DNA of 37,884 bases, taken from a virus (lineage: Duplodnaviria > Heunggongvirae > Uroviricota > Caudoviricetes). How positions within the stretch are numbered: the first letter of the stretch is position 1; each line of letters starts with the position of its first letter. The stretch is from positions 1 through 37,884 of the IMG/VR virus record IMGVR_UViG_2537562092_000002; one strand, given 5' to 3'. The notes under the pieces were generated by a model. It searched no databases. It worked only from the letters and a program-made list of their open reading frames with translations, and had not been told where the DNA came from. Shown here piece by piece: positions 6,606 through 36,486 of the stretch. The position numbers and the translations under genes are program-made.

Positions 6606-6668
6606 TAACTTATTGATTTAAATGGTGCCGATAATAGGAGTCGAACCTACGACCTTCGCATTACGAAT
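6606..6668. repeat. Prophage attL: 63-bp direct repeat containing the 3' 46 nt of thrW
   Basis: taacttattgatttaaatggtgccgataataggagtcgaacctacgaccttcgcattacgaat is identical at 36424..36486. Confidence 0.85.
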
Positions 6669-8900: not shown

Positions 8901-9770
<870 letters not shown>

Positions 9771-11912: not shown

Positions 11913-11914
11913 TT

Positions 11915-12628
11915 CTACCGTCCTATCGAAATATAACTGAATCTGTATTGCTGTGAGATATCACTGGTTGCCACATGCCACGCTGAATTACTGATATGTT
12001 CAAAATTTACAGACAAAACCTGCGGGGCAGGATTCGACGGGTCTGACTGAACGGCATCAGACATAACACTGACTGAAACCATCGGCTGATTAGGGAATGG
12101 TATAGGGAAGTGTCCACTGATAAAGCGGGTCGTGTTTCCTGAAAAAGTGCCAAACTGAACAATATATCCACCTGGTAGCCCGAACCATCCCGAACCAGAA
12201 GCGAATGCTCCCATATCCGGTATCTGATTATCTCCTGTGCCCACATCCCTTTTCGCCGCTTCTCCTAAACCAAGGTTTTCGAGAGCCGTTTTCACCGTGC
12301 CATCCGATTTGATATCGCCAAACGGATTCTTGCGGCTCAGGTATTCAACAGCAAACCCCGATCCCAGCAATTCAACAAAACCGGGCAGATCACCATTATC
12401 AAGCACATCCCGTTGCGTTTTATCACTTACAAACTGGGCCAGAGCTGCAGCAATAAAGCTGGCCTGCCGAATAACCTTATTGACTTGCGCACTGGATGCT
12501 TTCCCTGCTGTAAATCCGGATATAAGCGCAGGCAACGCTTCCCATTCCTCCTGCGACATAACATTGGCATTTCGATCAGTTGCAAACGCTTTAAAGTCAT
12601 TTTTCGCCATCAGAGTAATACTCCCCAT
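11915..12628 (-). CDS. Tail fibre (S-like): constant N-terminal part plus variable C-terminal part inside the invertible segment
   Basis: The gix site at 12260..12285 lies in-frame (..[13 protein letters not shown]..), so the C-terminal ~115 aa are exchangeable on inversion; follows a gp48-like gene. Confidence 0.6.
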
Positions 12629-13290
12629 GCCCCTACATCAAAACCACTGATGAATTCGTTATCCATATCAAAACCAAAAAATTTAGAGCCTTCCGATGGA
12701 GTTTCCACCGAAGGTGTTTCAATGCCCCCCGCCCATACCCCGGCGGCTTTTACTGTTAGATACCCCTGTTTAATTGCCGCAATTAACTCACGCGATACAT
12801 CTGAAATATCAGTATCAGGAAAGACCCAGACCGATATCGTCATGTCCTGGTTATCGACTATCTGCATTCGCAGCCCGGATCCTGCTGTTGCCGCGTCAAG
12901 AATTGCCGGAAGCGAATCATTCCGTCCGTCCCAGTTATTAATCGCAATCTTCGCTTTAAGAATGACACGATAAGTTTCATCGCTGAGATACATGTATCCT
13001 GAATCAGGATCGTATGGTCCCTGCCATACCCCCTGATCATATCCAAGCCCGTCGGTATCCCAGCTGAAATAGACACCTGAGATAGGCTGGCTGACAACAC
13101 GGCTACGTCCGATCCACAATCCAAGAATGTCAAGTTGCACACCAACCGCAGAGTCAATATCAAATGCAGTAATCAGCCCTCTGGTGGCAGCCGCAACATC
13201 AATAAGTGGCCGGGTCATCAGATCAACATGCGCAAGAAATTTAGGTTTGGTGGCGTGGTAGTTCGTGATTAGTTCGGTGTATTTGCTCAT
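12610..13290 (-). CDS. Phage tail/baseplate protein (Mu gp48 / P2 gpI-like)
   Basis: Position between the baseplate J-like gene and the tail fibre; 226 aa. Confidence 0.5.
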
Positions 13291-14486
13291 GACTCCACCG
13301 TTATAACGATATTTTCCGGGGTACAGGACGTAGATTCGTTGTATCTGATATCAATGTTTGATGACGACAAAGCCCCCGGGGATTTCCCAATCGTCAGTTC
13401 CTGAATATCGTAATAGCGTGCATTCCCGCCACTCACCACGCCAAGATTCGCCGGTGAGTAAATGCGACTTAAAAGGACCGAATCACCAATCATCAGACTA
13501 TTGATATAGTCGGAAATAGCCTGCTGGATCTGCTGCCCTATCTGTGAGGTATAACCCGTAAAAACTTTTAATTTAATCCGGGCGTAAACAGGCACATCAC
13601 TGGAACGCGAGAATTTGATTACATGGGGATTGCCGTATTTATCCGGAACCGTAACGGATGTTGTACCGTGAGTGGCTGTCCCCTGGCCTTTATTTCCTCT
13701 GATAGCCTGAGCAATATCCGTCACATCACCGCCATCCACAATTACAGCAACAGAGTGTGGCGGTAACCCGTTACCGTCCTCCGAACCAGTATCGTTTTCA
13801 TAGAGTTTGTGGCGGGTTACACCGGTAACATTAGAAACAGCACCATCCAGTGCTTCAAATGGGGTTATTGATGGCAACGCAACACTTTGCGACTGGCGGA
13901 TACGTAACTCCGCATCAGTTTCTGCTGGAGTGCCTACAGTAGCTGCAGCAGGATTGGTTACCGAAACCCAGCCACGGGTTGGCGTATTAATTTCAGTGAT
14001 AGTTCCAGCCAGCGCCGCCACTGCACCACTGACAGAACATTTTGCGGTCACCATCACTGTACCATCCACGCCGACCACCACTGAAGCAGGCAAACGCCAT
14101 ATCACATTATTACTGTCTTTCACGCTGCCATTAATGATGGTTGTTCCGGCAGTTCCTGTAAGAAGCAAATCAACCGTAGAATTCGTCGCGCCTTTACGTG
14201 AAATACCATTTATTTTCACGTTACTGGTCAGTGCAGCCCCATAGCCGGTTGCCGGTGAAAAACAGTTGTAGACAGTTATCGCCATATTATTGGCATCATG
14301 AATCGCCAGCGCCATCAGAGCCACCATCTGGCCGTCTTTGCTGTCCGGTTCGAGGTAGGCATCACTGCCATAAATCTGCTGAAAATAGCTAATCAGGGTG
14401 CTGAGTATCGTCTGATAATCAGGCGCACTGATCCCCTCCGCGGTTACCTTTGCAGATAAACCGAGAGAATCAAGGTTCAGAGCCAT
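13287..14486 (-). CDS. Baseplate J-like protein (Mu gp47 / P2 gpJ family)
   Basis: 399-aa ORF in conserved baseplate gene order, overlapping neighbours by 4 nt. Confidence 0.55.
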   Translation of the reverse strand: MALNLDSLGLSAKVTAEGISAPDYQTILSTLISYFQQIYGSDAYLEPDSKDGQMVALMALAIHDANNMAITVYNCFSPATGYGAALTSNVKINGISRKGATNSTVDLLLTGTAGTTIINGSVKDSNNVIWRLPASVVVGVDGTVMVTAKCSVSGAVAALAGTITEINTPTRGWVSVTNPAAATVGTPAETDAELRIRQSQSVALPSITPFEALDGAVSNVTGVTRHKLYENDTGSEDGNGLPPHSVAVIVDGGDVTDIAQAIRGNKGQGTATHGTTSVTVPDKYGNPHVIKFSRSSDVPVYARIKLKVFTGYTSQIGQQIQQAISDYINSLMIGDSVLLSRIYSPANLGVVSGGNARYYDIQELTIGKSPGALSSSNIDIRYNESTSCTPENIVITVES

Positions 14487-14839
14487 TACGCCTCCGATGT
14501 AACAGTCGTTATTCCATAGAGAGTGTCGATTTCAGCGGAAAACATGACACGTCGGGTCGTGGTATCCACCGTCGTATTGAAAGAGAGGATTGATTTAACG
14601 CCCTGCGTTTCCAGAATGCGTTTTCTGATCGCTAGGTTGTAAGTTTCCGGTTTTTGCCTGCCCAGCACAGACTGGAACCACGGAGTCCCTTCGGTAGTGT
14701 CGAGAAACCATTGCCCATACCACAATTCGAATCGCGTTTTCACAGCCTGTGCCACGGCCTCAGGCGAGTTAATCAGCCAGGTGTCATCACCGCTGCCAAA
14801 GGTGTAATCGCCATCGGCGTCTTCACGTCTGTATCGCAT
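14486..14839 (-). CDS. Baseplate wedge protein (Mu gp46 / P2 gpW / T4 gp25-like)
   Basis: 117-aa ORF translationally coupled between the spike and J-like genes. Confidence 0.5.
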   Translation of the reverse strand: MRYRREDADGDYTFGSGDDTWLINSPEAVAQAVKTRFELWYGQWFLDTTEGTPWFQSVLGRQKPETYNLAIRKRILETQGVKSILSFNTTVDTTTRRVMFSAEIDTLYGITTVTSEA

Positions 14840-15591
14840 CAGTTTACCCCGTCGGTACTGCTTCCACCGCGCTGAACACCGCCATGAGTGTGCGTATCAT
14901 CGATTGGCTTGCCGTTAGCCTTAACGCTCCCCAAGAACTCAACAGCACCAGTGATTTTTGAAGCCACGCCAGAAACAACAGACCCCACCATGCCTCCCAT
15001 CCAGGTTAACAGGCCATGAATGGTTACTTTCTCAGAAAAATCAGCCAGAGGGGCAACCACATCAAGGCCCCCCGGAGCGACAATTTTAATTTTCCTGGTA
15101 TCAGGATTAAGCTCAAAATAGGTGCTGCCGTCATCACTACGCAACTGTGTGGCACTGGTATTAATACCGCTAATCTTCCTTGCCTGCGACTGGGGACCGA
15201 CAATACAAAACGCATCCGATAAATCATGCATTCTGTCATCGACCGGCTCCTGTATCCCGCCACTCTGCCACCAGAAATCAATACAACGATCGGCAAAAAT
15301 CACCAAACATTCATCACCGGCTTTAACTGGAAACGTTAGCGTACAGCCTCCGCCACGCGGGAATACCACTGGCACATCCACCAGCAATGGGTAATTTTTG
15401 GTAATGCGGTTGCCGTCGTTATCAATTTCAACGTAACGGATAGCAGGCTGTACAACCGCCGTCACCGCATCAGGAGCGAATGACTGAACAATGCCAGGCA
15501 AGGCGACACGGATCTGGTTCTTTGTTGTTTCCCGTTCAGATTTAAATGTTTCGGCAAGGTCGCCGCTGCGGGTCTGGTCAGATACTGCCAT
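14839..15591 (-). CDS. Baseplate spike/assembly protein (Mu gp45 / P2 gpV-like)
   Basis: 250-aa ORF at the gpV position upstream of gp46/gp47-like genes. Confidence 0.5.
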   Translation of the reverse strand: MAVSDQTRSGDLAETFKSERETTKNQIRVALPGIVQSFAPDAVTAVVQPAIRYVEIDNDGNRITKNYPLLVDVPVVFPRGGGCTLTFPVKAGDECLVIFADRCIDFWWQSGGIQEPVDDRMHDLSDAFCIVGPQSQARKISGINTSATQLRSDDGSTYFELNPDTRKIKIVAPGGLDVVAPLADFSEKVTIHGLLTWMGGMVGSVVSGVASKITGAVEFLGSVKANGKPIDDTHTHGGVQRGGSSTDGVN

Positions 15592-16964: not shown

Positions 16965-17297
16965 TCACCCAGCCACTTTTTTACAAGGGAAAGATCCTAT
17001 GATTTTCGGCGCATCCATGCTGTTCTGCAGAAGCTGGACATTCAGGAAAGCTTTTCCGTTACGTTTCACAAACTCAAAGCCGTAATTGTTACCATCACGG
17101 GAAGGCATCAGGCCCATGTCCATTTTTATGTTTGAATAGTCACCATCTTTTCCCAGAAATTTTATCTTCTGTGATGTGACAGTTTCACCGTTAATAACAG
17201 TCATTCCGTCACCGGTCATCGTGTAGTTGCCGCACTGAATTGCAGCCATCGCCGGAGCAGTAACCATCATAACTAACGCCAAACATAACCGTTTCAT
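16965..17297 (-). CDS. Small secreted (signal-peptide) protein, ~110 aa
   Basis: Start MKRLCLALVMMVTAPAMAA is a typical Sec signal peptide; TAATG overlap with the stop of the baseplate-hub gene. Confidence 0.5.
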   Translation of the reverse strand: MKRLCLALVMMVTAPAMAAIQCGNYTMTGDGMTVINGETVTSQKIKFLGKDGDYSNIKMDMGLMPSRDGNNYGFEFVKRNGKAFLNVQLLQNSMDAPKIIGSFPCKKVAG

Positions 17298-18361
17298 TAA
17301 AGCCCTCTTTCCCTCGCTGATGAGGAAACAAGATCCGCCGCGCCACGCGCTTCGCACATCATATCCATGTACCACGCCTGGCCCCTTGTATCGCCAGTGT
17401 ACATAATCCCGCGCACAATATAAACGCCATCCGTTGCGATGCTGGCAGGTTGTGCTGTGGTGCCGCTGAGTGTGATATTTCCGTCCGTGTTCTGGTCGGT
17501 GCTCTGCCCACCAGCCATCGCAATATCATTGTTCGACAGCGCGGTGCGGTACACGGAAGCCTGATCCAGCTGAATAAGCCCGTTAACCCGGATGTTCGGA
17601 TTAATAAGCGCGCGGACGTTTACGCCGTTACCGATAGTCTGCTGCGGCATGCCAATAAGCCCGGTAGCGCTGTTGAGCACAATCGCTTCATGAACATATT
17701 CGTTATTCGCCACCATCTGGCGCTGACCGTCCACGAATTGCCATGTTGCGCCACATTGCCCGGCTACGTTATCCATTAGATGCCGCGTCATGCCAAAGAG
17801 TACCCGCCCCCGGGGGAATACAGTAGCAGGCATTTCAGGCGTCAGGCCTTCGGTCGCGCCTTTGGCCTCAAAGTCTTTCATCAGCGCACGGTTTACATCA
17901 GCGACCGTGTAACCGGCAGCCAGCGTCTGTGAGGTTATACTGGTGGCAAAAGCCAGATCAGTATCGGCTGCCTGAATCAGGACGTAGGAATCAACCGGGC
18001 TGTCTTTTCCTGTGACCGAGTAGCGAATTTCACCGCTGAAAATCAGTCCGTAGTTGCGGCCATCACTCTGGCCCACGTCCGCCGCATCAACCTCCCGCAC
18101 GGTCCCGACATCGCTTGCCGACACCTCCGGCGCGATACCGTCGTAACCCGCAATCAGACGCACTTTCGAAAACTCCTGCCCGGTAATTCGGTTCACAGTA
18201 TCTGCCGAGAGGTTATAAATTTTGATAGTCCCTACCCGGGACGCGCTGCTGATGTTGAACCAGTCGATCGTAAAGGTGACTTTGAAATCACTTAGCTCAA
18301 TTCCCTGACCGTTCCCGTCCACAAGCTGCAGCTCGAAATGTCTCATCCAGTTCTGTGTCAT
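17297..18361 (-). CDS. Baseplate hub / tail protein (Mu gp44 / P2 gpD-like)
   Basis: 354-aa ORF at the conserved position between the tape-measure-proximal genes and the baseplate spike. Confidence 0.5.
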   Translation of the reverse strand: MTQNWMRHFELQLVDGNGQGIELSDFKVTFTIDWFNISSASRVGTIKIYNLSADTVNRITGQEFSKVRLIAGYDGIAPEVSASDVGTVREVDAADVGQSDGRNYGLIFSGEIRYSVTGKDSPVDSYVLIQAADTDLAFATSITSQTLAAGYTVADVNRALMKDFEAKGATEGLTPEMPATVFPRGRVLFGMTRHLMDNVAGQCGATWQFVDGQRQMVANNEYVHEAIVLNSATGLIGMPQQTIGNGVNVRALINPNIRVNGLIQLDQASVYRTALSNNDIAMAGGQSTDQNTDGNITLSGTTAQPASIATDGVYIVRGIMYTGDTRGQAWYMDMMCEARGAADLVSSSARERGL

Positions 18362-18363
18362 GC

Positions 18364-18666
18364 TTACTCCGTTGATACCAGTAAATGACTGCGCCCGCCC
18401 AGGTCAGTTTTCGTGGGATAATCCTGTGTGTTGTCATCGCAGACCACCAACAGCTTAAAACCAAGTCCCATACAGGCGTACTGCGCCAGCAGGTCGGCAC
18501 CAGTGACGAGAGGAATACCGGAGATTACCGGCTCCCCTCTGTCGTTCTGCAGGTCCATAATCCAGTACAGATCGCGCCATATGATGCTAATCCGCCAGGT
18601 AACACCACCTAAGACGATGCTGAACTGCTGGTTGTCCGCTGTCAGCGGAATTTCCTGAATTGTCAT
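18364..18666 (-). CDS. Phage tail protein, 100 aa
   Basis: Tightly coupled ORF in the tail operon. Confidence 0.35.
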   Translation of the reverse strand: MTIQEIPLTADNQQFSIVLGGVTWRISIIWRDLYWIMDLQNDRGEPVISGIPLVTGADLLAQYACMGLGFKLLVVCDDNTQDYPTKTDLGGRSHLLVSTE

Positions 18667-19253
18667 TAGCCGCCCCCCAGTAATGACGCCACGTTACCCG
18701 TGATGCTTTTCAGCAGTGAAGTATCTGGAGGCTTTGTGGTTTTGTTGCCGCTATTCTGTACCGCCGACGTGCTGGCCCCTTCCTTCATGTTGGTTTTATC
18801 CGCGACGGTAATCTGCTGTGTCCGGGAGATAAGGACCTCCCTCAGGGTGAGGACGGCAGACAGGACGTTTTCGGTTGTCTTGTCCGTCGTCACTTCCAGC
18901 GCCCGGATCAACATGTTGCTGTACAGTCGTTTACCGGTTACCACATCGAAGGGGATACGGCTTTCCTGCAGATCCAGTAGCTCCTGATACGTCTGCTGAG
19001 GACTCAGGCCGAGCAGGCTGGTAGCCGTCAGATTACTGGCAAAATCCAGCAATGCGCCGCCACCGGCGAAACCAACCTCCATCACCACTTCTGACGGTTT
19101 TTTATAGGCATGATCAGCGACAGCGGCCCCAACCTCTACCGGATGCTCTGTTATTTCAAGCATATCTGTATGCTTCTCTGAAATAACAACACTGGGAACA
19201 ATCATTCCTATTTTTCTGCTCTGCTGATGAAAAAGTGTAGAGAGAATATCCAC
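18666..19253 (-). CDS. Phage tail/baseplate assembly protein, 195 aa
   Basis: Tightly coupled ORF directly downstream of the tape measure gene. Confidence 0.35.
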   Translation of the reverse strand: MDILSTLFHQQSRKIGMIVPSVVISEKHTDMLEITEHPVEVGAAVADHAYKKPSEVVMEVGFAGGGALLDFASNLTATSLLGLSPQQTYQELLDLQESRIPFDVVTGKRLYSNMLIRALEVTTDKTTENVLSAVLTLREVLISRTQQITVADKTNMKEGASTSAVQNSGNKTTKPPDTSLLKSITGNVASLLGGG

Positions 19254-21262
19254 TAACCCACCCTCACCTGATTACTTCGCATGACCTGAGCATTTGCAGA
19301 CTGTTGCCGACGTGCAACCTCATTACCGACAGCGTGCGGATCTCCGCCACCGTAAATGTGGTAGGTATTTTGCTGGTTAACCTCTGTCACTTTGCCACTA
19401 ATTCCCGCCACGGCAGCCTTATTAATCAGCTCTCGAGAATAGATATTTCTTCCATTCTCATGCTGGATAATGCTGCTCATCAATGCTGACATGGTTTGCG
19501 GATCGCTCATATTCAGGGCAGCCCGGGGATCCACTCCCAGTCGTTGCGATACAGCCCTGATATACGCAGTTGTGTTGTTATTATCAGACGCAGGTGCCCA
19601 GGTAGAGATAATTTTCTCCACACTGTTTATTCCCCGTCCGGCGTACAGCATTAACTGACGAGCAAGAGCCCGTAATCCATCAAAGGCAGTTTCAAATCTG
19701 GCAAATCGCCCGCCCGGGCGTTCAAGAGAAGCCCCTGCCTGACCAGCAAAATTAAGGTTTCCCGGATTGTTATTCCGTTCTCCTCGTTTCGTAGCCTGTG
19801 CATGTTGTTCCGGCTCATCATCACCAAACCAGCCGCGTACCGTCCGGCCCACACTGCGGGGATCAAATCCCCAGTGCTCTTTAATCCAGTCGGCAGTACT
19901 GTTAGCGCTGTCTGTAACCATCGGCATCGCTGACGGATTTTCGCTGCCCTGATTAAGTATCTGTTTGCCGATGCTGACGGCATCAGCCCAGCGGCCATCT
20001 TTGATAGCGTTGAGCAGGTCGGCGATCATGTTCAGCATTTTGCTGAATTCGCCCATCTGGTCGATGAAGTTGCTGAAATCCCACTTCAGGGACCATGATT
20101 TGGGGTCAATATTGAGCAGTTTCGCCAGCGCTTTCACCAGGTCGTTAACGGTCGTTTTAAGGTCACGAACCATCTTCAGCGCGGCATCAACCTCCGGTTT
20201 CCACTTGCCCCAGTCAATCAGGCTGTCGCCGCCTTCCTTCCAGGTCTGATAGTCCTCCCACAGGAGGGCAATCCCCGCCGCCAGCGCGGTAATGAGGCCA
20301 ATCGGCGACATCCAGAACGTACTGTTCAGAATGCGCAGCGCAATCGTCAGTGCGCCAAACAGCGAGATCAACTCCCGCGTTTGCTTATCCAGCGATTGCC
20401 ACCAGGTGATGAGGCCTGATGTCCCCTCAATCAGTCTGAAGAACAGCCGCCCGATAATATCCCCGAGCGCCAGAATGCCTTTTATGGCTTTCGTCAGGGT
20501 CTGCTCGATACGCGGGAAGTTGTCCAGGATATGGCGGCGCAGTGTGTCCAGCGAACCCGCAAGCCCACCCGCAAGATTAGAGCCGATTTTGTCACGGGCC
20601 ATGCCTGCCATCGCGCCAAACTCACGCAGGGAGGTCATAAATTTGTTGGAGCTTCTGGCCGCCTCGTCAGCATTGAAGCCGATAGCTTTCGCCATTGCGC
20701 TGTACTGCCCGGAGAAGCCACCCACACCGCGACGCATAGCCAACAGGGTATTTTCGTCAATGCCCAGCATCTGCGCATACTGGTTAGCACGGTAATACGG
20801 CATGTCGCTGAGCTTCTGGCCTACCCCTGTAAAAATAGCGGCCATGTCACGCATGTTACCGCTGGCATCCCGTGTCTGTACCCCCAGACGATTCAGAAAT
20901 CCCTCCGCCCCGGGATTATTACGAATAAACCGGGAGAGGTTTTCCAGAGAAGATCGCGCAGCGTCCACGCTGCCGCCAACCTGCGAAACCGCATAGCCAA
21001 TAGACTGAATTCCCTGGACTGTCGCGCCGGTGCGCTGTGACGCCCAGTAAAGATTATCCAGGCCGGAGGCGATCTTAGCCGTGAAGGCCACCACGGACAG
21101 CGCCGCTCCTTCGACGGCCAGCCCCATTTTGATGACATTTGCAGTTGTACCGGCGAGGACAGAACCGAATTTTTTCGCTCCTGCATCATCCACACTGAAG
21201 CCAAGCGAGACAAGGAAATCTTTAATAGTCTCGGCGTTCATTATCCTCTCTCCATTTCTCAA
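19253..21262 (-). CDS. Tail tape measure protein, possibly with a C-terminal muralytic domain
   Basis: 669-aa protein with Ala/Gly-rich, helix-prone repeats; the largest gene in the tail cluster, downstream of the tube and chaperone genes. Confidence 0.6.
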   Translation of the reverse strand: MRNGERIMNAETIKDFLVSLGFSVDDAGAKKFGSVLAGTTANVIKMGLAVEGAALSVVAFTAKIASGLDNLYWASQRTGATVQGIQSIGYAVSQVGGSVDAARSSLENLSRFIRNNPGAEGFLNRLGVQTRDASGNMRDMAAIFTGVGQKLSDMPYYRANQYAQMLGIDENTLLAMRRGVGGFSGQYSAMAKAIGFNADEAARSSNKFMTSLREFGAMAGMARDKIGSNLAGGLAGSLDTLRRHILDNFPRIEQTLTKAIKGILALGDIIGRLFFRLIEGTSGLITWWQSLDKQTRELISLFGALTIALRILNSTFWMSPIGLITALAAGIALLWEDYQTWKEGGDSLIDWGKWKPEVDAALKMVRDLKTTVNDLVKALAKLLNIDPKSWSLKWDFSNFIDQMGEFSKMLNMIADLLNAIKDGRWADAVSIGKQILNQGSENPSAMPMVTDSANSTADWIKEHWGFDPRSVGRTVRGWFGDDEPEQHAQATKRGERNNNPGNLNFAGQAGASLERPGGRFARFETAFDGLRALARQLMLYAGRGINSVEKIISTWAPASDNNNTTAYIRAVSQRLGVDPRAALNMSDPQTMSALMSSIIQHENGRNIYSRELINKAAVAGISGKVTEVNQQNTYHIYGGGDPHAVGNEVARRQQSANAQVMRSNQVRVG

Positions 21263-21418: not shown

Positions 21419-21871
21419 TCAGCCCTGTTGCAGGCTCTGCGTCGTGCTGGTAAGGGGTGTAGGCAAAAAATTTCCCAGCGAATCGGCGACCACCCGCGCC
21501 ACCAGCTGCAGCATGACCAGCAGGTCAATATCATCAAACATCAGTTCGCCCTGGGTAAATACCGGCACCCATCCGTCCATATGACGCCGCGATACCACCG
21601 CAAGACAGGGATGAATAATCGCATCGGTGTCATCTTCGGTCAGGGAAGACAGTTCCTCAGCGATACGCGGGAGCATGGTTTCAAACACCGGTTTTAACTG
21701 CTCGAATTTCACGGTGTCGATTTTGCCGTCAGCAGGCAAACGGGAGCGAATGCTCCCGAAATCTGACATCATTCCCGCCAGTACCGGCAGAAGTTTGCGG
21801 GTCACTTTCAGCTGGTCAAAAACGCTGAGTTTTGCCACGCGATATTTCACGCCTTTGATTTCGAATTCCAT
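21419..21871 (-). CDS. Tail assembly chaperone
   Basis: 150-aa ORF between the tube and tape measure genes, followed by a 156-bp apparent gap. Confidence 0.4.
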   Translation of the reverse strand: MEFEIKGVKYRVAKLSVFDQLKVTRKLLPVLAGMMSDFGSIRSRLPADGKIDTVKFEQLKPVFETMLPRIAEELSSLTEDDTDAIIHPCLAVVSRRHMDGWVPVFTQGELMFDDIDLLVMLQLVARVVADSLGNFLPTPLTSTTQSLQQG

Positions 21872-21874: not shown

Positions 21875-22315
21875 TTAAAACTCCCCGAGAACCTGGTCAA
21901 TCTTGCCGCAGTCAAACACCCACGGCATCGTATTACCGGTTTTAGCGTTGGCATTATCCGGTTGTTTCTGGAACGCAACACTGCGTGCCGTGATGATGTC
22001 GCCGCTGACCTTGTTGCGGATCACGATAACGTTATTCCCCCATGTGGCAGAAGACTGGCTCTGTGCGTTATACGCCAGCGACAATTTTTTATTTGTCGGT
22101 GATGTCTTCAGAAGGTTAACGGTAATCGTCCCGCTTTTATCTGCATGGAGGCTGTGCATCACTTCACCATCAGCACCGATGGTCATGGTGTTTTTAGGAC
22201 CGCCCATCGCAACCACAATCCCCTCTTCAGAACTTGCAGAACCGTACCCGAGGTCAATCGAACCGGTCGGGCCGGTCAGCGTCGCAGTGACATCCATAAA
22301 AGAATAGGTAGACAT
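21875..22315 (-). CDS. Tail tube protein
   Basis: 146-aa ORF immediately downstream of the sheath gene. Confidence 0.5.
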   Translation of the reverse strand: MSTYSFMDVTATLTGPTGSIDLGYGSASSEEGIVVAMGGPKNTMTIGADGEVMHSLHADKSGTITVNLLKTSPTNKKLSLAYNAQSQSSATWGNNVIVIRNKVSGDIITARSVAFQKQPDNANAKTGNTMPWVFDCGKIDQVLGEF

Positions 22316-22325: not shown

Positions 22326-23471
22326 TTAGCGAACAACGTTAATCTGTACGTCAGCGTAATGAACCGCGCCTGCAAGTTTTATTGCAGCCTGAATCACCGG
22401 AGCCTTACGGGCTTCACGTTCTGATTGTGCCTGTTCATCCAGCGGCTGGGCGTATACGTAATAACCTTTGGGCAGTGTGTCACCTGATGACAACTGACCA
22501 AGGTCGCCCCCGTTCCATACGCCCGGAGCAATCAGTCCATTCTGAACGGCCTGATCCAGTGATTTTTCAACATTTGATAACAGTCGGGTAATACCGGCTT
22601 CAGTCTGGGGAACTTTCGTGGTGCTGGTATAAAGCAGGTTATAGAGGTTGGTCTGCACATAATTCTGTAACCAGTCCAGGCCGTGGCGTTCATCAAAGAA
22701 ATCGCCGTTAGCCATCACTCCCTGCTGGAGGATAGCCGTATCATTCTGGTAGTACACGAATACATTGCAGTTTTTTGCATCAAGTGCCGATGCCTGGCTG
22801 ACTGTCAGTGTTTCATACCCGACACCCGGCTCCTGCTTAAACTTGAGCGTAATCGCGGTATTACTGCCATTGAAATTAACCGTGAATACCCGGCCAAATG
22901 CAGATAACGCAGCGTATTTATTACCCGATGAATACTGAATAAAACTGCGTGAATATCCGGCGGTTTTCAGTTTTGATGCCAAATCATCGCTGGATGCAGT
23001 CTGCAGGCATTTATCATCGCTTGTCGTAATCGCCAGAATACGGCTTACAGAAGAGGATTCGATCGCCGCAGCCACTTTCAGCCAGTCTGCATCCGGAATA
23101 TCTTCATCGTCTGCAATCCCCAGCCCATACCATGAAGTATAATCGAGCATGGCATTCACAGCCTGCTCCAGCGTCTCAGGCGTGGCCTGTTCGCTGTCAC
23201 CCTTCGTTTTCACCCAACGACCAACAAAAACCTCCTGAGGTTTCGGTGATTGTGAGAAAAACACCTGCGCAGCCTTATATTCTGGTGATTCCACGCCAAA
23301 ATCTTTTCCAATATCTTCCGCGGCAGAATAACGGCGAATGCGCTCACTTACCGGAATGATTGTGGACGGGCCGAGAATGAGTAATGCACCAAAATTTCGC
23401 CCTGATGCTGCACGCGGCGACATGATCACATCAACATTAACAACGTTTGATACAGGCAAGCCCTGTGCCAT
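22326..23471 (-). CDS. Contractile tail sheath protein
   Basis: 381-aa ORF heading the tail cluster, followed by tube, chaperone and tape measure. Confidence 0.55.
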
Positions 23472-23474
23472 AGC

Positions 23475-24755
23475 TTAATCTCCGAAAAAGATGACTGGTG
23501 CTTCCACCAGCGATTTAATACCGTACTCGCGCACAACCTTCCGGCGCAGGCGCACCGTCATATCGTAGCGGCGGACCCATTGCTGATTAATAAATTCAGG
23601 GAAGGGGGTCAGACCTGTGTAATCGCCAAGAGACAGCCCCAGCGCATTCAGTGCTGCATTGTTCTGCGGTACAGATATACCGTCACGAAACCGGGACGCA
23701 TACACCATCCCCGCCGGACCATAAAACGAAGCCATACACTCAATCGTTTCATGCCGCCAGAGCTTAGAGCCATCATCGGTCTGTCTGGTGAATGCCGGAC
23801 TGTCATCACCTGACCATCCGATACCCAGTTTGATATGCGCATCAACGGCAGCCTGTACCCATTCGGATGGAATCAGGACGCCTTCCGCTGATGCGCTGTA
23901 GTTCAGATCAAGTTCCTGTGCCACCACCACCGGATTATCGATTTTCTCGCATTCCCTGCGATACCACTCTTCATCCTTGCGAGGATCATCCCGCCAGTGG
24001 AATGTGAATACCGGTATCTTCCCGCCATGACGCTTCTGAGCGAACGGGTTAGCCATGCCGTTAACTGAACTCAGGTCGATACGGCAACGCGTCGTTTGTG
24101 ACAACGCCGCATCAATCAGCAGAGGACGCTGAAGGAATGCAGCCTCATCAACCAGATAAAGCGTGGTACGGTCACCACGACCAATATTATCGCCAGCCTC
24201 GCCTTTGATAACGGCACCAGTTTCAGGAAACTCAACACGCATATATGGCGCGTGCTTCTTCTCACTCCACGAACCGCGAAACTCTACAGGTAGCGTTTCC
24301 ACGAACTTGCGCGCCTTCCAGAACAATGCTTTCGGGTCACCAGTGCTGTCGACGTATTCCTCTTTACGGGAGCCAAAACCGATAACCATTTCTTTGTTGA
24401 AGAGACAAAGCGAGCATGCCAGTCCGATCGCGGTCCAACTGAGCCCCATTTCACGGGATTTTTCGGTAATACCATTCTCCCGATTGCTCCAGCGTTCCAT
24501 AATCCAGTGGATCCACTCCTCCTGCTTAGGGAAGAGTAAAAACGGAATGGTCACCGGCAGGCCATAATCAATATTACGCGGGTCCGTTGTCATGCCCCAG
24601 TCGATGATGAACTGAGCCGGATTGGTTCGGTAAAACTGTTTTAGTGCAGGCAATATTTCAGGATTCTGGCGAATGCGCTGTAGGCGTTCCATCCGCCATT
24701 CAAAAACCATCTGGTAATCAGGATGTTTAAAATCGAAGGGGAATGGTAACGGCAT
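23475..24755 (-). CDS. Terminase large subunit (TerL), possibly C-terminally truncated or fused
   Basis: Deviant Walker A-like [11 protein letters not shown] and Walker B-like [10 protein letters not shown]; follows terS. Only ~220 aa remain after Walker B, and the next gene is the tail sheath rather than a portal. Confidence 0.6.
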
Positions 24756-24757: not shown

Positions 24758-25309
24758 TTAGCCCATCATTTTTCTATACGCTTCTGCAACCTGCTCCGGC
24801 GTTAAGTTGGTAATTTCTGTTCTGACTGGTCCTCCGTCAGCACCAGTCACTTCATTTTTGACATTGTCTTTAAACGCCTGAACAGAAACATGACGCCCGA
24901 GCAACTCAAGGTTTTTAACCTTATCAGGCCATTTGATTTTCTTCAGAAGTGCGGCGCTATCTGCGGATGCCATCTCCACGACATCCATTCCTGATAACGT
25001 TGTGCGCCATACCTTAGGCCAGTCTTTAATGGGTTTTAGCTCACCGTTTTGCAGGAGAATGTCAAGCACATCCATCTGGTCGATTTCAATAAGGCGATTA
25101 AGTACATATTCTGCATTAATACCAACAAGATCATTGCGTTGCGCTTTCAGTTCGGCGATTCTTAACTTGATGTCAGGTTTTGACAGGTTTTCGGATGCGG
25201 TACGGTTGGCTGTTTTTGCGCTGTACCCCGCCCGAATAGCCGCTTGCGTGGCGTTTAAATCGATGAGGTACTCGCGACAGAACATCTCTTGCTTGTCTGT
25301 GAGTGCCAT
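24758..25309 (-). CDS. Terminase small subunit (TerS)
   Basis: N-terminal [34 protein letters not shown] is typical of phage small terminase HTH regions; directly upstream of terL. Confidence 0.65.
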
Positions 25310-25761: not shown

Positions 25762-26203
25762 TTGATGTTGGTGGTGAACTTTTGCCACCCAGTTAATCAC
25801 TCTTAGCAGGATATAAGCCATTGTCGAGACCACTCATTGAATGGTCTCTGCAATAACCGATGTCTTTCCATCAGTCCGCCACCACAAAGAATCTTTTTTG
25901 CCATAAGGCTGGATGTTCATCTTTCAGTGGCTGCCAGTGTTATTTCCCCACTTACTGGCTTGGGTTGTTTCGCTGTACTGCCGTAACTGGTTGCCCAGAA
26001 TAAATTCCGGTTTCATTATCAAGCCCACCCGTAGATAGGCTTTGTAATGAACTGGCTCTTATCTCAACGCAGCCCCTTACCGCGCGCCAGATGCTCAACT
26101 TCAAGCATCAGCAATGAGATGTTTAATCTGGATTCACTCCAGAAGTGATCACCACCCTGTCTACAGAGCCAGATGTGAAGGATGATGAGTAAAATTATCG
26201 CTA

Positions 26204-26674
26204 TCATCGAAGGCATTGCGTCCTGATGTATTCCTGCAAGTAGTTAACCTGCGCGGTTATCCTGTCGATTCCACTTCGGAGACGGTAATAATTGAGTTCA
26301 GCATCTGCTGTAAGTCTTGGGCTTTCTCCATCGCCCATGCTGCTGGCTCCGGTCGTTGACTTTGCACAGGTGGCGGCGACTTGCAGGCGCTTACGCCCAG
26401 CAGAAACATCAGCACGGAGACTTTCGATAGTCGCGTTAGCATCAGCAAGCTCCTTTGTGTATCTTGCGTCGAGTTCTGCTACATCACGTTGACGCTTCCG
26501 CATGTCAGCGATGGTGGCGTTCGCCTTCTCCAGTTCACTGGCCTTGTTATCGCGCTGCTCTTTGTAGGCGATTGCGTTATCACGGTAATGATTAACAGCC
26601 AATGACAGGCAGACGATGATGCAGATAACCAGAGCGGAGATAATCGCGGTTACTCTACTCATTGTTGCCCCCAC
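26204..26674 (-). CDS. Rz: Spanin inner-membrane subunit Rz (i-spanin)
   Basis: [38 protein letters not shown]... closely resembles lambda Rz; follows the endolysin. Confidence 0.85.
26257..26448 (-). CDS. Rz1: Spanin outer-membrane lipoprotein Rz1 (o-spanin), embedded in Rz in another frame
   Basis: [29 protein letters not shown]... has a lipobox (LGVSAC) and Pro-rich segment, wholly inside Rz. Confidence 0.7.
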
Positions 26675-27156
26675 AAACAGACTTCACGCTCAATCTCACG
26701 GCGAGTCATCAGCCCTTTCCATTGCTTACCGCCAGCGTATGTCCAGCGCCGTAGCTGATCACATGCGCCTTTGATATCGCCCTGGTTTATTTTGCGAAGA
26801 AGCGTCGATGTTCTGAAATTTCCAGCACCAACGTTGTAAACGAACGAGTAAAGAGCGCCGCGCGTTGTTTCCGGTATATCGACTTTGATGTACGGGTTAA
26901 TTTGTCTGGCGACAGTGGCAAGGTCTTTATTCAGGAGGGCTTTGCATTCTGCTTCGGTATACGTTTTACCGAGCATAATGTCTTTTCCGGTATGCCCGTA
27001 ACATACAGTCCATACACCAACGATATCTTTATATGGTATGTAGCTGACGCCTTCCAGACCATCGTTACCACTTGGGCCAGTGATTAACACAGATGCTATA
27101 GCAATAGCCCCGCCACCAATAGCCGCAGCAACGGCTTTTCGTAATGATGGAGGCAT
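26659..27156 (-). CDS. R: SAR endolysin (lysozyme, phage 21 R-type)
   Basis: N-terminal signal-anchor-release segment [20 protein letters not shown] followed by a lysozyme domain; matches phage 21 R as recalled. Confidence 0.85.
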
Positions 27157-27371
27157 TATTCACCTCTCGCAGCCTTTCTTCTGTCTTCTCTGATTTTGAA
27201 GTACAGATTTGTCAGATAGGTGAGAAAGCCCAACACAAGGCTTCCAAGCACCCCAATCGCAGCCCACTGTGATGGACTGACCTGATCCAACCACTGCAAA
27301 AACCAGTATCCCGCACTACCAGCGGATGTTCCGTAGGCAATGCCAGTTGAGATTTTGTCCATTGATTTCAT
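27156..27371 (-). CDS. S: Pinholin (phage 21 S-type), dual-start holin/antiholin
   Basis: [71 protein letters not shown] matches S21 (71/68-aa forms from M1/M4). Confidence 0.85.
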
Positions 27372-27565: not shown

Positions 27566-27570
27566 ATATT

Positions 27571-27736: not shown

Positions 27737-28282
27737 CTATGCTACATGTTTAATTTTCTCTACACGTTTCCGGTTTTTAAACGCACTATCCAGAACCGGG
27801 TAAATCATAAACAACGAGGCATTGAGGATTTCGTCAACTTCCCGTCGACAGGTTGCGAGCGATGGTTTTTGAATGCGCCCGCCGCCCCGGCATAACATCT
27901 TGCGAGGTCTTGCGACGCGATGATAGTAAGATGCAATGGCGTGCTTGGAAGAGCCGTGGGCGTAGTAGCTGAGGAGGATGCCAAAGGCTTTCTTGTCAAT
28001 GTACATGACGGAATCGACGACCTGAGAAATCAACATTCCATCATCATCATTACACATTGGCCTTGTCATAACTCTTCCCGGCTCTACGCTCTCCATGAAC
28101 TTAGCTATTACGCTGCTCATGCGCTTTTCCAGACGACCTGAATAAACCCATGCGCCCCACAGTTCAAGCCAGCCATTCAGCCACTCGTGCTGTTCTTTGG
28201 TGAGGTTTAGTTCTCTTATGCCCATGCGCCTTCTCCCTTGTGATCTGGAATGGTTTTTACTGAGAACGTCATGCGGCCTCAC
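27737..28282 (-). CDS. Q: Late-gene antiterminator Q (phage 21/82-type); start may be MGIRELNL at ~28225
   Basis: ...[27 protein letters not shown]... and Cys-rich C-terminal region resemble lambdoid Q proteins; sits upstream of the late terminator and lysis genes. Confidence 0.75.
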
Positions 28283-28790
28283 TTCTGCTGTTTCGCAGGT
28301 CTTTGAGTTTCTGCTGATACTCCGCCTTGATGGCCCTGCACTCTTCGACAGTCCAGCGATGGCGGTTATGGTTTGATTCGATTTCGTCTACTGCTTCCTG
28401 CCCGATGCGGCTAATCAGTTCGACGCGATACGGAACGAGATTTCCGCTTTTGTGCTGGTTGCACACCACGCATTGCTTGTGAATATTGCGTTCATCAAAT
28501 CGGAGTTGAGGTGCCGCAGCAGTTGTCCGGTAATGTCCGGCATCCCACTGAGCAGACGTGAGCGTTCCGCAAGAGATACATGGTAAGTCGCGGTCTCTTT
28601 CTCTGATGAAGGCGTTTACGGCTTGTTGGGCTTGTTTAATCCAGTAACTGCGGGGCTTTAAGGCGAGTTTTCTAATCTTAAGTTTATCTTTCTGTTCCTT
28701 CCACTGAGAGACTGCTGCATCGCTAATGCCTAACGCTTTAGCTACCGCACGCTGGGTTCCGAAGTGGTCGATAACATCTTTCTTGTACAT
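28269..28790 (-). CDS. In-frame fusion: P22-type Cro N-terminus (~31 aa) joined to lambda NinG/Rap C-terminal ~140 aa (deletion product)
   Basis: [32 protein letters not shown] matches P22 Cro; [43 protein letters not shown]...NSRSEAA matches the lambda NinG C-terminus. Confidence 0.75.
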
Positions 28791-28870: not shown

Positions 28871-29521
28871 ATGAATACACAACTGATGGGTGAGCGTATT
28901 CGCGCTCGCAGAAAAGAACTTAAGATTAGGCAGGCTGCCCTTGGCAAGATGGTTGGCGTGTCTAATGTTGCTATTTCCCAATGGGAGCGTTCTGAAACTG
29001 AGCCCAATGGCGAAAACCTATTGGCTTTAGCCAAGGCTTTACAGTGCTCCCCTGATTACTTGTTGAAAGGAGAAGATAGTCTTTCAAACATTGCCTATCA
29101 CAGCAGGCATGATCCAAGAGGTTCGTATCCTCTAATTAGTTGGGTAAGCGCAGGATGTTGGATGGAAGCTGTAGAGCCATATCATAAGCGTGCAATAGAT
29201 AACTGGTACGATACAACCGTAGATTGTTCAGAAGATTCGTTTTGGCTGGACGTAAAGGGTGATTCGATGACGGCTCCAGCCGGTCTTAGCATCCCGGAAG
29301 GGATGATAATACTAGTCGATCCTGAAGTAGAACCTCGTAATGGGAAGCTGGTAGTGGCAAAGCTCGAAGGAGAAAACGAGGCAACTTTCAAGAAGTTAGT
29401 TATTGATGCTGGCAGAAGGTTTCTAAAACCACTTAACCCACAATATCCGATGATTGAGATCAACGGGAACTGCAAAATCATCGGTGTAGTTGTCGATGCA
29501 AAAATAGCAAACCTTCCATAA
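28871..29521 (+). CDS. c2: Prophage repressor C2 (CI-like; HTH plus LexA-type S24 autopeptidase domain)
   Basis: MNTQLMGERIRARRKELKIRQAALGKMVGVSNVAISQWERSE... matches P22 C2; C-terminal domain carries GDSM and a Lys-containing dyad region. Confidence 0.9.
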   Translation: MNTQLMGERIRARRKELKIRQAALGKMVGVSNVAISQWERSETEPNGENLLALAKALQCSPDYLLKGEDSLSNIAYHSRHDPRGSYPLISWVSAGCWMEAVEPYHKRAIDNWYDTTVDCSEDSFWLDVKGDSMTAPAGLSIPEGMIILVDPEVEPRNGKLVVAKLEGENEATFKKLVIDAGRRFLKPLNPQYPMIEINGNCKIIGVVVDAKIANLP

Positions 29522-35386: not shown

Positions 35387-36426
35387 AGGCTGAAGCATGG
35401 CGGGTCAGCAAACTTGGTGAAATACCTGATATGACGTTTGAGGAAGCGTGTGTCAGGTGGCTCGAAGAGAAAGCACATAAGAAATCACTGGACGATGACA
35501 AAAGCCGGATCGGATTCTGGCTTCAACATTTCGCAGGGATGCAACTAAGAGACATCACTGAATCAAAAATTTATTCAGCGATGCAGAAAATGACAAACCG
35601 GCGTCATGAGGAAAACTGGAAACTCAGGGCAGAAGCATGCAGAAAAAAAGGGAAACCTGTTCCAGAATACACGCCAAAACCAGCGTCCGTTGCAACGAAG
35701 GCTACGCATCTTTCATTTATAAAGGCCCTGCTAAGAGCCGCAGAGCGTGAATGGAAAATGCTGGATAAGGCACCAATTATTAAAGTGCCTCAACCAAAGA
35801 ATAAACGGATCCGCTGGCTGGAGCCCCATGAAGCACAAAGGCTGATTGATGAATGTCCGGAGCCATTAAAGTCTGTTGTTGAATTTGCACTGGCAACAGG
35901 CTTAAGACGCTCGAACATCATCAACCTTGAATGGCAACAAATAGATATGCAGCGCCGGGTGGCATGGATAAACCCGGAAGAGAGTAAATCAAACCGCGCA
36001 ATCGGCGTTGCGCTGAATGATACTGCATGTCGCGTATTGAAAAAACAAATCGGGAATCATCACCGTTGGGTATTTGTGTACAAGGAAAGCTGTACCAAAC
36101 CAGACGGAACGAAAGCGCCAACAGTAAGGAAGATGCGGTATGACGCAAACACAGCCTGGAAAGCGGCGCTGAGACGGGCTGGTATTGATGATTTCAGATT
36201 TCACGACTTGAGACACACCTGGGCAAGTTGGCTGGTTCAAGCCGGAGTCCCGTTGTCAGTGTTACAGGAAATGGGAGGCTGGGAGTCTATCGAAATGGTT
36301 CGTCGATATGCTCACCTTGCACCTAATCACCTTACCGAACACGCACGGCAAATAGACTCGATCCTGAACCCATCGGTCCCAAATTTGTCCCAGTCAAAAA
36401 ATAAGGAAGGTACTAATGATGTGTAA
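35263..36426 (+). CDS. int: Tyrosine integrase (P22 Int-like), thrW-specific
   Basis: [48 protein letters not shown]... with C-terminal R...HxxR...Y catalytic region ([15 protein letters not shown]); its stop codon abuts the att repeat next to thrW. Confidence 0.9.
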
Positions 36427-36486
36427 CTTATTGATTTAAATGGTGCCGATAATAGGAGTCGAACCTACGACCTTCGCATTACGAAT
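36424..36486. repeat. Prophage attR: 63-bp direct repeat overlapping the 3' part of intact thrW
   Basis: Identical to 6606..6668. Confidence 0.85.

What the first reader, a model, noticed from the sequence alone, without database searches (positions are those of the whole stretch)
22326..24755. Head morphogenesis module missing: terminase large subunit abuts the tail sheath gene
terS and terL are followed after 3 bp by the sheath gene. No portal, protease/scaffold, major capsid or head-tail connector ORF exists anywhere in the prophage. TerL has only ~220 aa after its Walker B motif, so its C-terminal end may be a fusion formed by the deletion. The prophage therefore cannot make capsids.
Basis: partly seen in the sequence, partly recalled or inferred. 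Interest (0 to 1): 0.45.

Follow-up and report, generated by a model that had tools for sequence, protein, structure and literature searches.

The report
Headless defective prophage, terminase–terminator fusion
A 7.2-kb deletion in an E. coli prophage removed every capsid gene and welded the front half of the DNA-packaging enzyme to the back two-thirds of the tail-capping protein, which is ordinary prophage decay mapped to the base.

Summary
The 426-aa ORF at 23475-24755(-) is an in-frame chimera. Residues 1-312 are the ATPase half of a 540-aa TerL. Residues 312-426 are the C-terminal 115 aa of the ~187-aa tail (neck) terminator, the gene that normally sits 3 bp upstream of the sheath gene.

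Two intact relatives (phage vB_EcoM-606R2 and the E. coli TST3 prophage at the same thrW/proA site) each carry exactly 7,232 bp more. That segment holds the TerL nuclease domain, portal, MuF-like head protein, scaffold, cement protein, major capsid protein, four small head-completion/neck genes and the terminator N-terminus. The junction lies in a 4-bp microhomology (GATA, 23820-23823).

No head gene remains anywhere in the window. A second in-frame deletion (cro'::'ninG, ~4.5 kb) removed cII, O, P, ren and ninB-F.

The same junction is absent from 5,426 complete E. coli genomes. It occurs on 22 near-identical contigs, including E. coli H494, so it is one recent event.

Regulation, lysis and tail genes remain intact, but the terminator is structurally truncated, so tail-only particle production is possible but doubtful. 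Other relatives carry unrelated deletions, which points to random decay.

The parts
6606..6668 (.). attL: 63-bp perfect direct repeat of the 3' end of thrW
   Evidence: Identical 63/63 to 36424-36486. The same repeats flank the TST3 prophage.
36424..36486 (.). attR, overlapping tRNA-Thr(CGT) thrW (36441-36516, minus strand), next to proA (36631-37884)
   Evidence: The element is 29,881 bp, against 44,106 bp in TST3.
24758..25309 (-). terS, intact small terminase subunit (183 aa)
   Evidence: PF03592 E 7e-40; phrog_51. 97.8% identical over the full length to TST3 TerS.
23475..24755 (-). terL'::'terminator in-frame fusion ORF (426 aa)
   Evidence: The exact protein is P0001, 'hypothetical protein ESQG_01080 [E. 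coli H494]'.
23820..24755 (-). TerL ATPase portion (aa 1-312; Walker B LYLVDE at 199-204). The nuclease domain is absent.
   Evidence: 98% identical to TerL 1-316 of TST3. Aligns to L001 24162-25288 and L002 28808-30298. The nuclease domain of a full-length homologue spans aa 293/296-523.
23820..23823 (.). Deletion junction: 4-bp perfect microhomology GATA (TATC on the coding strand). With a 1-nt slip it extends to GATA(A)CCC, through 23826.
   Evidence: Three-way alignment of the window against both parental flanks.
23478..23822 (-). C-terminal 115 aa of the tail/neck terminator (aa 312-426 of the fusion; residues 73-187 of the 187-aa protein)
   Evidence: PF23961 profile positions 36-150 of 153. 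99% identical to TST3 terminator 68-182. Fold of the full-length protein matches PhiTE, Pam3 gp12 and E217 terminators.
22326..23471 (-). Tail sheath (381 aa), intact, with its native GGAG ribosome-binding site inside the terminator 3' end
   Evidence: PF11863 E 7e-101; phrog_205. Sequence context.
21875..22315 (-). Tail tube (146 aa)
   Evidence: PF11681 E 9e-61.
21419..21871 (-). Tail assembly chaperone
   Evidence: PF21822; phrog_1688.
19253..21262 (-). Tape measure protein with a C-terminal lytic domain
   Evidence: phrog_2276 E 9e-283.
17297..19253 (-). Baseplate core: Dit-like tube initiator (18666-19253), plug (18364-18666) and hub (17297-18361)
   Evidence: PF21821, PF22479, phrog_196.
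11915..15591 (-). Spike (14839-15591), sheath initiator (14486-14839), baseplate J (13287-14486), wedge (12610-13290) and tail fibre (11915-12628)
   Evidence: PF18352. PF10934 and PF04865 on the identical genes of L004. TST3 annotation.
26204..27371 (-). Lysis cassette: holin (27156-27371), endolysin (26659-27156) and Rz-type spanin (26204-26674)
   Evidence: PF04971, PF00959 and PF03245 on the identical genes of L004.
27737..28282 (-). Q-family late antiterminator
   Evidence: PF06530 on the identical gene of L004.
28269..28790 (-). Second deletion scar: cro'::'ninG in-frame fusion (173 aa). A pR-like promoter lies at 28848-28821.
   Evidence: P22_Cro profile 2-31 at aa 3-32 plus NinG profile 53-192 at aa 28-167. 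About 4.46 kb is missing relative to SM107. Promoter scan.
28871..29521 (+). CI-type repressor with an S24 (LexA-like) self-cleaving peptidase domain
   Evidence: HTH_3 plus Peptidase_S24 on the identical gene of L004.

Best explanation
The window holds a 29.9-kb defective prophage integrated at thrW next to proA. The sequence is identical to E. coli H494 across the 21.3 kb compared.

Its ancestor was a ~42-44-kb temperate phage with a lambdoid early region and a simple contractile tail of the E217/Pam3/PhiTE type.

One illegitimate recombination event removed 7,232 bp. It occurred between two copies of GATA (GATA-CCC versus GATAACCC), one in terL codons 311-312 and the other in the tail-terminator gene.

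The deletion removed:
- the TerL nuclease domain;
- portal, MuF-like head-morphogenesis protein, scaffold (DUF2213), cement protein and major capsid protein;
- four small head-completion/neck genes;
- the first 72 codons of the tail terminator.

Because the deletion is in frame, translation runs from the TerL ATPase domain into the terminator C-terminus. It stops at the terminator's own stop codon, 3 bp before the sheath gene, so the downstream tail operon keeps its native ribosome-binding site and coupling.

A second in-frame deletion fused cro to ninG and removed cII, O, P, ren and ninB-F.

The element therefore cannot build capsids, cut or package DNA, or replicate. The fusion ORF is most likely a functionless by-product. 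The deletion endpoints, gene losses and frame are shown directly. The slippage or microhomology mechanism and the lack of function are inferred.
For: - **Chimeric ORF.** Pfam neck terminator at aa 311-424; PHROG TerL at aa 33-333; PHROG 1973 at aa 312-426. BLASTP to TST3 TerL (residues 1-316, 98%) and to the TST3 terminator (68-182, 99%).
- **Deletion size.** Collinear alignments to two intact relatives both show a 7,232-bp gap at the same point: L001 16934-24165 and L002 21580-28811.
- **No head genes in the window**.
- **Nuclease domain missing.** It maps to aa 293/296-523 of a full-length homologue; the fusion ends its TerL part at 312.
- **Not an assembly artefact.** The exact fusion protein is on 22 contigs from isolates and metagenomes.
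- **Single recent event.** Carriers are 99.97-100% identical over 3-21 kb, while intact relatives are 93-98% identical. The junction is absent from 5,426 complete E. coli genomes, although 377 of them carry both flanks, mostly as two separate matches. It is also absent from the GTDB species representatives.
- **Second deletion**, co-occurring with the first in several samples.
- **Unrelated deletions elsewhere in the family.** One relative lost sheath and tube (L020). Another lost the tail between the capsid gene and the fibre gene (L021).
Against: - Both deletions in the window are in frame (chance about 1/9). Together they leave precisely the repressor, pR-Q, lysis cassette and a complete set of intact tail ORFs, which is also what selection for a tail-only element would leave.
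- An independent TerL-terminator fusion exists in a different phage lineage (P0090/L011).
- One carrier contig (L005) has a different lysis/early region upstream of the same junction. That could mean the deleted module has persisted through recombination, although the contig is a low-coverage metagenome assembly.
- Only the window was examined, so head genes elsewhere in the host genome are not excluded.
Confidence: 0.82

Rival explanations
1. Nascent R-type tailocin. The doubly deleted element is a working SOS-inducible producer of DNA-free contractile tails. Repressor cleavage would fire pR, Q, the lysis genes and the tail operon. The element would be kept because the tails kill competitors.
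For: All tail ORFs from sheath to fibre are full length and 93-98% identical to those of the compared relatives, 606R2 being a deposited phage genome. The S24 repressor, a pR-like promoter now directly upstream of Q, Q itself, holin, endolysin and spanin are all retained. Head and replication genes were removed cleanly and in frame. Engineered deletion of portal or capsid genes turns Salmonella phages into killing tailocins (PMC10670071). A second, independent terL::terminator fusion exists that keeps a whole terminator domain.
Against: The terminator is truncated. The AlphaFold model of the full-length protein (pLDDT 84) shows the fusion loses the N-terminal loop, helix 27-42, strand 49-51 and half of core strand 67-77. 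All 150 best family representatives carry residues N-terminal to the retained segment (about 65-95 in full-length members), and none is a TerL fusion. Known tailocins (pyocin R2 collar, monocin cap, diffocin collar) keep an intact homologue. In Pam3 this protein stops both tube and sheath growth (PMC9942802). Carriers are nearly identical, so there is no signal of long-term maintenance. Relatives show deletions that destroy tails instead. terS and the TerL ATPase remnant are useless baggage that has not been purged.
Confidence: 0.12
2. Rearrangement rather than loss. The head module was moved elsewhere in the genome by inversion or transposition, or a sibling prophage supplies heads, so the element is still part of a particle-forming system.
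For: Only 37.9 kb of the genome was available. Related prophages are common in E. coli (377-457 of 5,426 genomes), so a co-resident relative is conceivable. terS, and probably a pac site, are retained.
Against: The junction is a simple two-ended fusion of collinear sequences in the same orientation at a microhomology. That is the signature of deletion, not inversion. The replication genes are also deleted. The terminator N-terminal loop, which in Pam3 is the head-joining surface, is missing, so heads could not dock even if supplied.
Confidence: 0.03
3. Assembly or sequencing artefact that collapsed the head region.
For: None specific.
Against: The identical junction was recovered in 22 contigs from different projects, assemblers and sample types: NCBI isolates, ENA metagenomes and Logan assemblies.
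Confidence: 0.01
4. The fusion protein has acquired a function of its own, for example as a dominant-negative TerL ATPase that poisons the packaging motor of superinfecting relatives when their Q protein trans-activates the resident late operon.
For: The ATPase domain and TerS are intact and 98% identical to those of intact relatives, the 606R2 phage record and the TST3 prophage. The ORF is in frame and lies in an expressible operon.
Against: This is purely speculative. There is no conservation beyond one near-clonal group. No such architecture appears among the family representatives.
Confidence: 0.03

Closest known systems
Intact relatives: Escherichia phage vB_EcoM-606R2 (ON470579) and the thrW prophage of E. 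coli TST3 (NZ_CP154406)
   Same: Same gene order, with 93-98% nucleotide identity across the tail module, terS and the 5' part of terL. TST3 uses the same thrW/proA integration site and the same 63-bp att repeat.
   Different: They carry the 7,232-bp terL-3'-to-terminator-5' segment with all head genes. TST3 and SM107 also carry the cII-O-P-ren-nin segment. The window lacks both.
Cryptic or defective prophages of E. coli produced by internal deletions (e.g. DLP12, Rac, Qin, e14, CP4-6 at thrW in K-12; general knowledge, Bobay et al. 2014 PNAS recalled from memory)
   Same: An integrated, att-flanked phage remnant that has lost essential morphogenesis and replication genes while keeping regulatory, lysis and some structural genes.
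   Different: This one is young. It has two clean deletions with mappable junctions, no pseudogenised remainder, and a complete contractile-tail operon.
R-type tailocins (pyocin R2, diffocin, monocin, carotovoricin) and engineered head-gene-deleted phages (PMC10670071)
   Same: A contractile tail gene set plus a lysis cassette under an SOS-type repressor, with no capsid genes. The terminator fold is homologous to the pyocin collar and monocin cap.
   Different: The terminator/collar is truncated and fused to a TerL ATPase domain. terS, integrase and recombination genes are still present. There is no evidence of long-term retention or killing activity.
Tail terminator proteins Pam3 gp12, PhiTE (9cc7_F), XM1 and the E217 gateway protein (Pfam PF23961)
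   Same: The C-terminal 115 aa of the fusion belong to this family (Pfam E 2e-24). The full-length ancestral form folds like them (Foldseek E 3e-10 to 9e-07).
   Different: The first 72 residues are missing: the connector-binding loop, a helix, and about one and a half strands. They are replaced by 312 aa of TerL.

Membership tests
Large terminase subunit (TerL) | N-terminal ASCE ATPase domain with a Walker B motif | tested here: met
   98% identity to TerL residues 1-316 of the TST3 prophage. LYLVDE at 199-204. phrog_2 E 2e-19.
Large terminase subunit (TerL) | C-terminal RNase H-like nuclease domain with catalytic acidic residues | tested here: not met
   In the 540-aa homologue P0007, the solved nuclease-domain constructs (8dkr_B, Sf6 gp2 5c12) align to aa 293/296-523. 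The fusion leaves TerL at aa 312, upstream of the GAMDVAD motif.
Tail/neck terminator (Pfam PF23961) | Complete domain (profile positions ~1-150) in a stand-alone protein of ~175-200 aa | tested here: not met
   Only profile positions 36-150 are present. Full-length P0271 covers 2-150. The 150 best representatives are mostly 175-200 aa, and in full-length members the retained segment always lies at about positions 68-182.
Tail/neck terminator (Pfam PF23961) | Encoded immediately upstream of the sheath gene | tested here: met
   A 3-bp gap to the sheath ATG, identical to TST3.
Defective prophage formed by deletion | att-flanked element with an integrase at a tRNA, collinear with intact relatives except for missing essential modules, and with a simple junction | tested here: met
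   63-bp att repeats at thrW. 7,232-bp and ~4.46-kb gaps relative to L001, L002 and L003. Microhomology junctions.
R-type tailocin | Full contractile-tail gene set, lysis cassette and stress-responsive regulator, with no capsid, portal or packaging genes | tested here: inconclusive
   Tail, lysis, Q and the S24 repressor are present and head genes are absent. However, terS and a TerL ATPase remnant remain.
R-type tailocin | Intact tail terminator/collar capping tube and sheath | tested here: not met
   Loss of residues 1-72, including helix 27-42 and half of strand 67-77 of the modelled fold. Pyocin, monocin and diffocin caps are full-domain homologues.
R-type tailocin | Maintenance under selection in the host lineage | tested here: inconclusive
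   Carriers differ by at most 1 SNP and at most 1 gap per ~11.5 kb, so there is no divergence from which to measure selection.
R-type tailocin | Production of bactericidal tail particles | not testable with these tools
   Requires induction, electron microscopy and killing assays.

The most novel reading that the evidence does not exclude
The element is a snapshot of a phage turning into a tailocin. Two recent in-frame deletions stripped heads and replication but wired pR almost directly to Q, the lysis genes and an intact contractile-tail operon. On this reading the TerL-terminator chimera still caps tails well enough to give SOS-inducible killing particles. An independent TerL::terminator fusion in another lineage (P0090/L011) hints that this route may recur.
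Probability: 0.12. Interest if true: 0.55.

Novelty: new member of a known kind. Interest (0 to 1): 0.2.

Why it matters
It matters mainly for annotation and prophage calling. The ORF is a chimera that databases label 'hypothetical' or 'phage neck terminator protein'. Tools that count 'terminase plus tail genes' would overrate this element as intact.

It is a clean, datable example of microhomology-mediated prophage decay, with both parental flanks known to the base.

If the minority reading were true, it would offer a natural, very young intermediate for studying how tailocins arise from temperate phages, and whether a terminator lacking its head-joining N-terminus still works.

Tried and rejected
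- **Junction in reference collections.** I searched a 401-bp junction probe against 5,426 complete E. coli genomes and a 38-mer against the GTDB species representatives. Neither matched, so prevalence had to come from the exact-protein look-up.
- **Is TerL::terminator a recurrent architecture?** An exhaustive HMMER search with the 115-aa terminator part found none among the top 150 representatives. The long hits were WD-repeat false positives or unrelated extensions. The one independent case (P0090) came from the TerL search and is subject to ascertainment bias.
- **dN/dS among carriers.** Abandoned, because carriers are 99.97-100% identical.
- **Direct PDB sequence search with the fusion.** It gave only weak hits to Pam3 gp12 and Sf6 gp2 (E ~0.15) and spurious WD40 hits. 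Using the full-length homologues and an AlphaFold model plus Foldseek resolved both domains.
Neither name appeared among the listed matches in the phage collection, which were vB_EcoM-606R2-type E. coli phages for the tail side, and SEN34, Omnitron and yong1 for terL.
- **Window 25987-26210 versus SM107.** I considered this a possible third deletion. It looks like module replacement (a KilA-N gene absent), and I did not pursue it.
- **Promoter scan.** It gave a plausible pR but no convincing pR', and counts were no higher than in shuffled sequence.
Full report
**1. What is at the coordinates**

Three consecutive genes lie on the minus strand.
- terS is at 24758-25309 (183 aa; Pfam Terminase_2, E 7e-40).
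- A 426-aa ORF is at 23475-24755.
- A contractile-sheath gene is at 22326-23471 (381 aa; DUF3383/E217 gp31 family, E 7e-101; phrog_205 'tail sheath').

The 426-aa ORF ends 3 bp before the sheath ATG. Its Walker B motif (LYLVDE) is at residues 199-204, and 222 residues follow it.

**2. The 'TerL' ORF is a chimera**

Pfam gives no terminase hit. Instead it places PF23961 (phage neck/tail terminator) on residues 311-424, matching profile positions 36-150 of 153. PHROGs places the terminase large subunit (phrog_2) on residues 33-333 and phrog_1973 on residues 312-426.

I compared the ORF with the proteins of an intact relative, the E. coli TST3 prophage.
- Residues 1-316 equal TerL 1-316 at 98% identity. 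The full TerL is 540 aa.
- Residues 312-426 equal terminator residues 68-182 at 99% identity.

In the full-length homologue P0007, the crystallised nuclease-domain constructs (8dkr_B and the Sf6 gp2 nuclease domain) align to residues 293/296-523. The fusion leaves TerL at residue 312, before the GAMDVAD acidic motif. The nuclease domain is therefore gone.

**3. Mapping the deletion**

The window is collinear with two relatives that carry a full head module:
- Escherichia phage vB_EcoM-606R2 (ON470579; locus L001);
- the TST3 prophage (NZ_CP154406; locus L002), which sits at the same thrW/proA site.

In both, window position 23823 continues on the tail side and window position 23824 on the terL side. 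The interval between them is 7,232 bp in each (L001 16934-24165; L002 21580-28811).

In TST3 that interval encodes:
- the 3' part of terL;
- portal (DUF1073);
- a MuF-like head-morphogenesis protein;
- DUF2213 (scaffold-like, Pa193 gp24 family);
- cement protein Gp24;
- the DUF2184 major capsid protein;
- STY1053, DUF4054 (E217 gp27-like) and two small proteins;
- the first ~72 codons of the terminator.

The crossover lies within a perfect 4-bp repeat, GATA at 23820-23823. With a one-base slip it extends to GATA(A)CCC. This is the usual signature of RecA-independent illegitimate recombination. That mechanism is inferred, not shown.

The deletion is in frame, so the ORF ends at the terminator's own stop codon. 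The sheath gene keeps its native GGAG ribosome-binding site.

**4. No head genes elsewhere in the window**

I ran tblastn with 12 TST3 late proteins. Only TerS, TerL 1-316 and terminator 68-182 were detected.

The element is bounded by perfect 63-bp att repeats at 6606-6668 and 36424-36486. The right-hand repeat overlaps tRNA-Thr(CGT), next to proA. The element is 29,881 bp, against 44,106 bp in TST3.

**5. A second deletion**

ORF 28269-28790(-) combines the first ~32 residues of a P22-type Cro with NinG profile positions 53-192.

Relative to E. coli SM107 (L003), about 4.46 kb is missing. That segment carries cII, O, P, ren, ninB, a PAPS-reductase-like gene, ninD, ninE, ninF and the 5' part of ninG.

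A pR-like promoter (TTGACT-16-GATAAT) sits just upstream. The cro'::'ninG ORF and Q now follow pR directly. The element has therefore also lost its replication genes.

**6. Is it real, and how common is it?**

The exact 426-aa protein exists in public data as 'hypothetical protein ESQG_01080 [Escherichia coli H494]'. It was found on 22 contigs from NCBI isolates, ENA metagenomes and Logan assemblies. That excludes an assembly artefact.

The H494 locus L004 is 100% identical to window 13475-34755. Other carriers are 99.97-100% identical. By contrast, the intact relatives differ by 2-7%.

The junction is absent from 5,426 complete E. coli genomes, although 377 of them carry both flanks, mostly as two separate matches. 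It is also absent from the GTDB species representatives.

The cro'::'ninG fusion is on 18 contigs and co-occurs with the terL fusion.

Together this indicates a single, recent pair of events in one near-clonal lineage. One metagenomic contig (L005) joins the same junction to a different lysis/early region. That could be recombination or a chimeric assembly.

**7. Could it still make tails?**

Several features favour it.
- All tail genes are full length: sheath, tube, chaperone, tape measure, Dit-like initiator, plug, hub, spike, sheath initiator, baseplate J, wedge and fibre, plus an invertible fibre segment with its invertase.
- An S24-type repressor, Q, holin, endolysin and spanin are retained.
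- Deliberately deleting portal or capsid genes converts Salmonella phages into tailocins (PMC10670071).

The terminator argues against it.
- An AlphaFold model of the full-length 187-aa protein (62-sequence alignment, mean pLDDT 84.3) has an N-terminal loop, helix 27-42, strand 49-51 and core strand 67-77, followed by the rest of the sheet.
- The model matches solved terminators by Foldseek: PhiTE 9cc7_F (E 3e-10), Pam3 gp12 (E 4e-09), XM1, Bas63, Sf14, Pa193 and E217. It also matches the pyocin R2 collar, the monocin cap, the diffocin collar and lambda gpU.
- The fusion keeps only residues 73-187. It loses the loop (which in Pam3 is clasped by the head connector), the helix, one short strand and half of a core strand.
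- In Pam3 this single protein stops both tube and sheath growth (PMC9942802).
- All 150 best representatives of the family carry residues N-terminal to the retained segment (about 65-95 in full-length members). None is fused to TerL.

I therefore rate production of functional tail particles as possible but unlikely, at about 0.12.

**8. Context: decay is common in this phage family**

- A relative in SRR31121550 keeps its heads but has a deletion from the terminator into the 3' end of the tube gene, so sheath and tube are lost.
- A 9.6-kb remnant seen in several runs has a truncated terL and its capsid gene joined directly to a tail-fibre gene.
- An independent TerL(1-359)::terminator fusion exists in a different phage lineage: 76% nucleotide identity in terL, a 494-aa sheath, and a complete terminator domain covering profile positions 1-146 (P0090/L011). 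It was found through a search biased toward such fusions, so I do not read it as evidence of selection.

**9. Verdict**

This is a young, doubly deleted, headless and replication-defective prophage. The apparent short TerL is a TerL-ATPase::tail-terminator fusion created by a 7,232-bp microhomology-mediated deletion.

It is a new, precisely mapped member of a well-known kind (defective prophages), so intrinsic interest is low. The only reading that would raise interest is that it is a functioning incipient tailocin. The truncated terminator makes that unlikely, and only induction, electron microscopy and killing experiments can settle it.

Noticed in passing
window 28269-28790 (-): A second in-frame deletion scar. 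The Cro N-terminus (32 aa) is fused to the NinG C-terminus. About 4.46 kb carrying cII, O, P, ren and ninB-F is missing relative to E. coli SM107. The same fusion is present on 18 public contigs.
   Followed up: yes
L011 9754-11322 (Logan SRR1544315), protein P0090: An independent TerL(1-359)::terminator fusion in a different phage lineage, again sitting between terS and a sheath gene. Here the terminator domain is complete (profile positions 1-146 of 153).
   Followed up: partly
L020 8575-9069 (SRR31121550); L021 (SRR23034512): Relatives with different deletions. In L020 the terminator is fused into the tube 3' end, so sheath and tube are lost while heads are kept. L021 is a 9.6-kb remnant with a truncated terL (432 aa) and the capsid gene abutting a tail-fibre gene.
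   Followed up: partly
window 8946-9770 (+): A GIY-YIG protein that matches the PADLOC model PD-T4-3 (anti-phage defence) over its full length (E 8e-140). It lies in the accessory region between attL and the invertase. TST3 carries a retron Ec67 and a DUF262 gene at the equivalent place.
   Followed up: partly
window 7316-8362 (-): A 348-aa trypsin-like serine protease. It has weak matches to the protease modules of defence proteins (RT-Protease_XI, LmuA, HamA) and a faint ABC-3C CTD12 hit. It may be another defence cargo gene.
   Followed up: no
window 9829-12628: Hin/Gin-type DNA invertase (9829-10419) next to an invertible tail-fibre segment. Window 10445-12278 is inverted relative to phage 606R2. 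Alternative fibre C-termini and assembly chaperones lie on both strands, and about 20-bp inverted crossover sites sit at 10445-10464 and 12259-12278.
   Followed up: partly
window 15656-16815 (-): Two genes (243 aa and 142 aa) inserted in the tail operon between the hub-region genes and the spike gene. They have no Pfam or PADLOC hits. TST3 and 606R2 have different small genes at this spot. It may be a moron or defence hot spot.
   Followed up: no
window 27490-27645 (-): Phage-borne tRNA-Thr(TGT) and tRNA-Asn(GTT) between Q and the holin gene, conserved in TST3 and SM107.
   Followed up: no
window 1-6605: A second integrative island sits in tandem at thrW, beyond attL. It carries a DUF3987 protein (1060-2511), and its E. 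coli homologues are annotated with YfjI-family, IS1 and other genes. It is 99.9% identical to E. coli F8 over 6.6 kb.
   Followed up: no
L012 and L013 5270-5629: In two metagenomic carriers of both deletions, the CI-type repressor is called as only 119 aa (S24 domain only, HTH lost). This is either further decay or an assembly error.
   Followed up: no
L005 1-4560 (ENA ERZ1755928): The same terL::terminator junction and tail module are joined to a different Q/lysis region (PF03589 antiterminator, holin_3_1, pRha). This is either recombination after the deletion or a chimeric low-coverage contig.
   Followed up: partly
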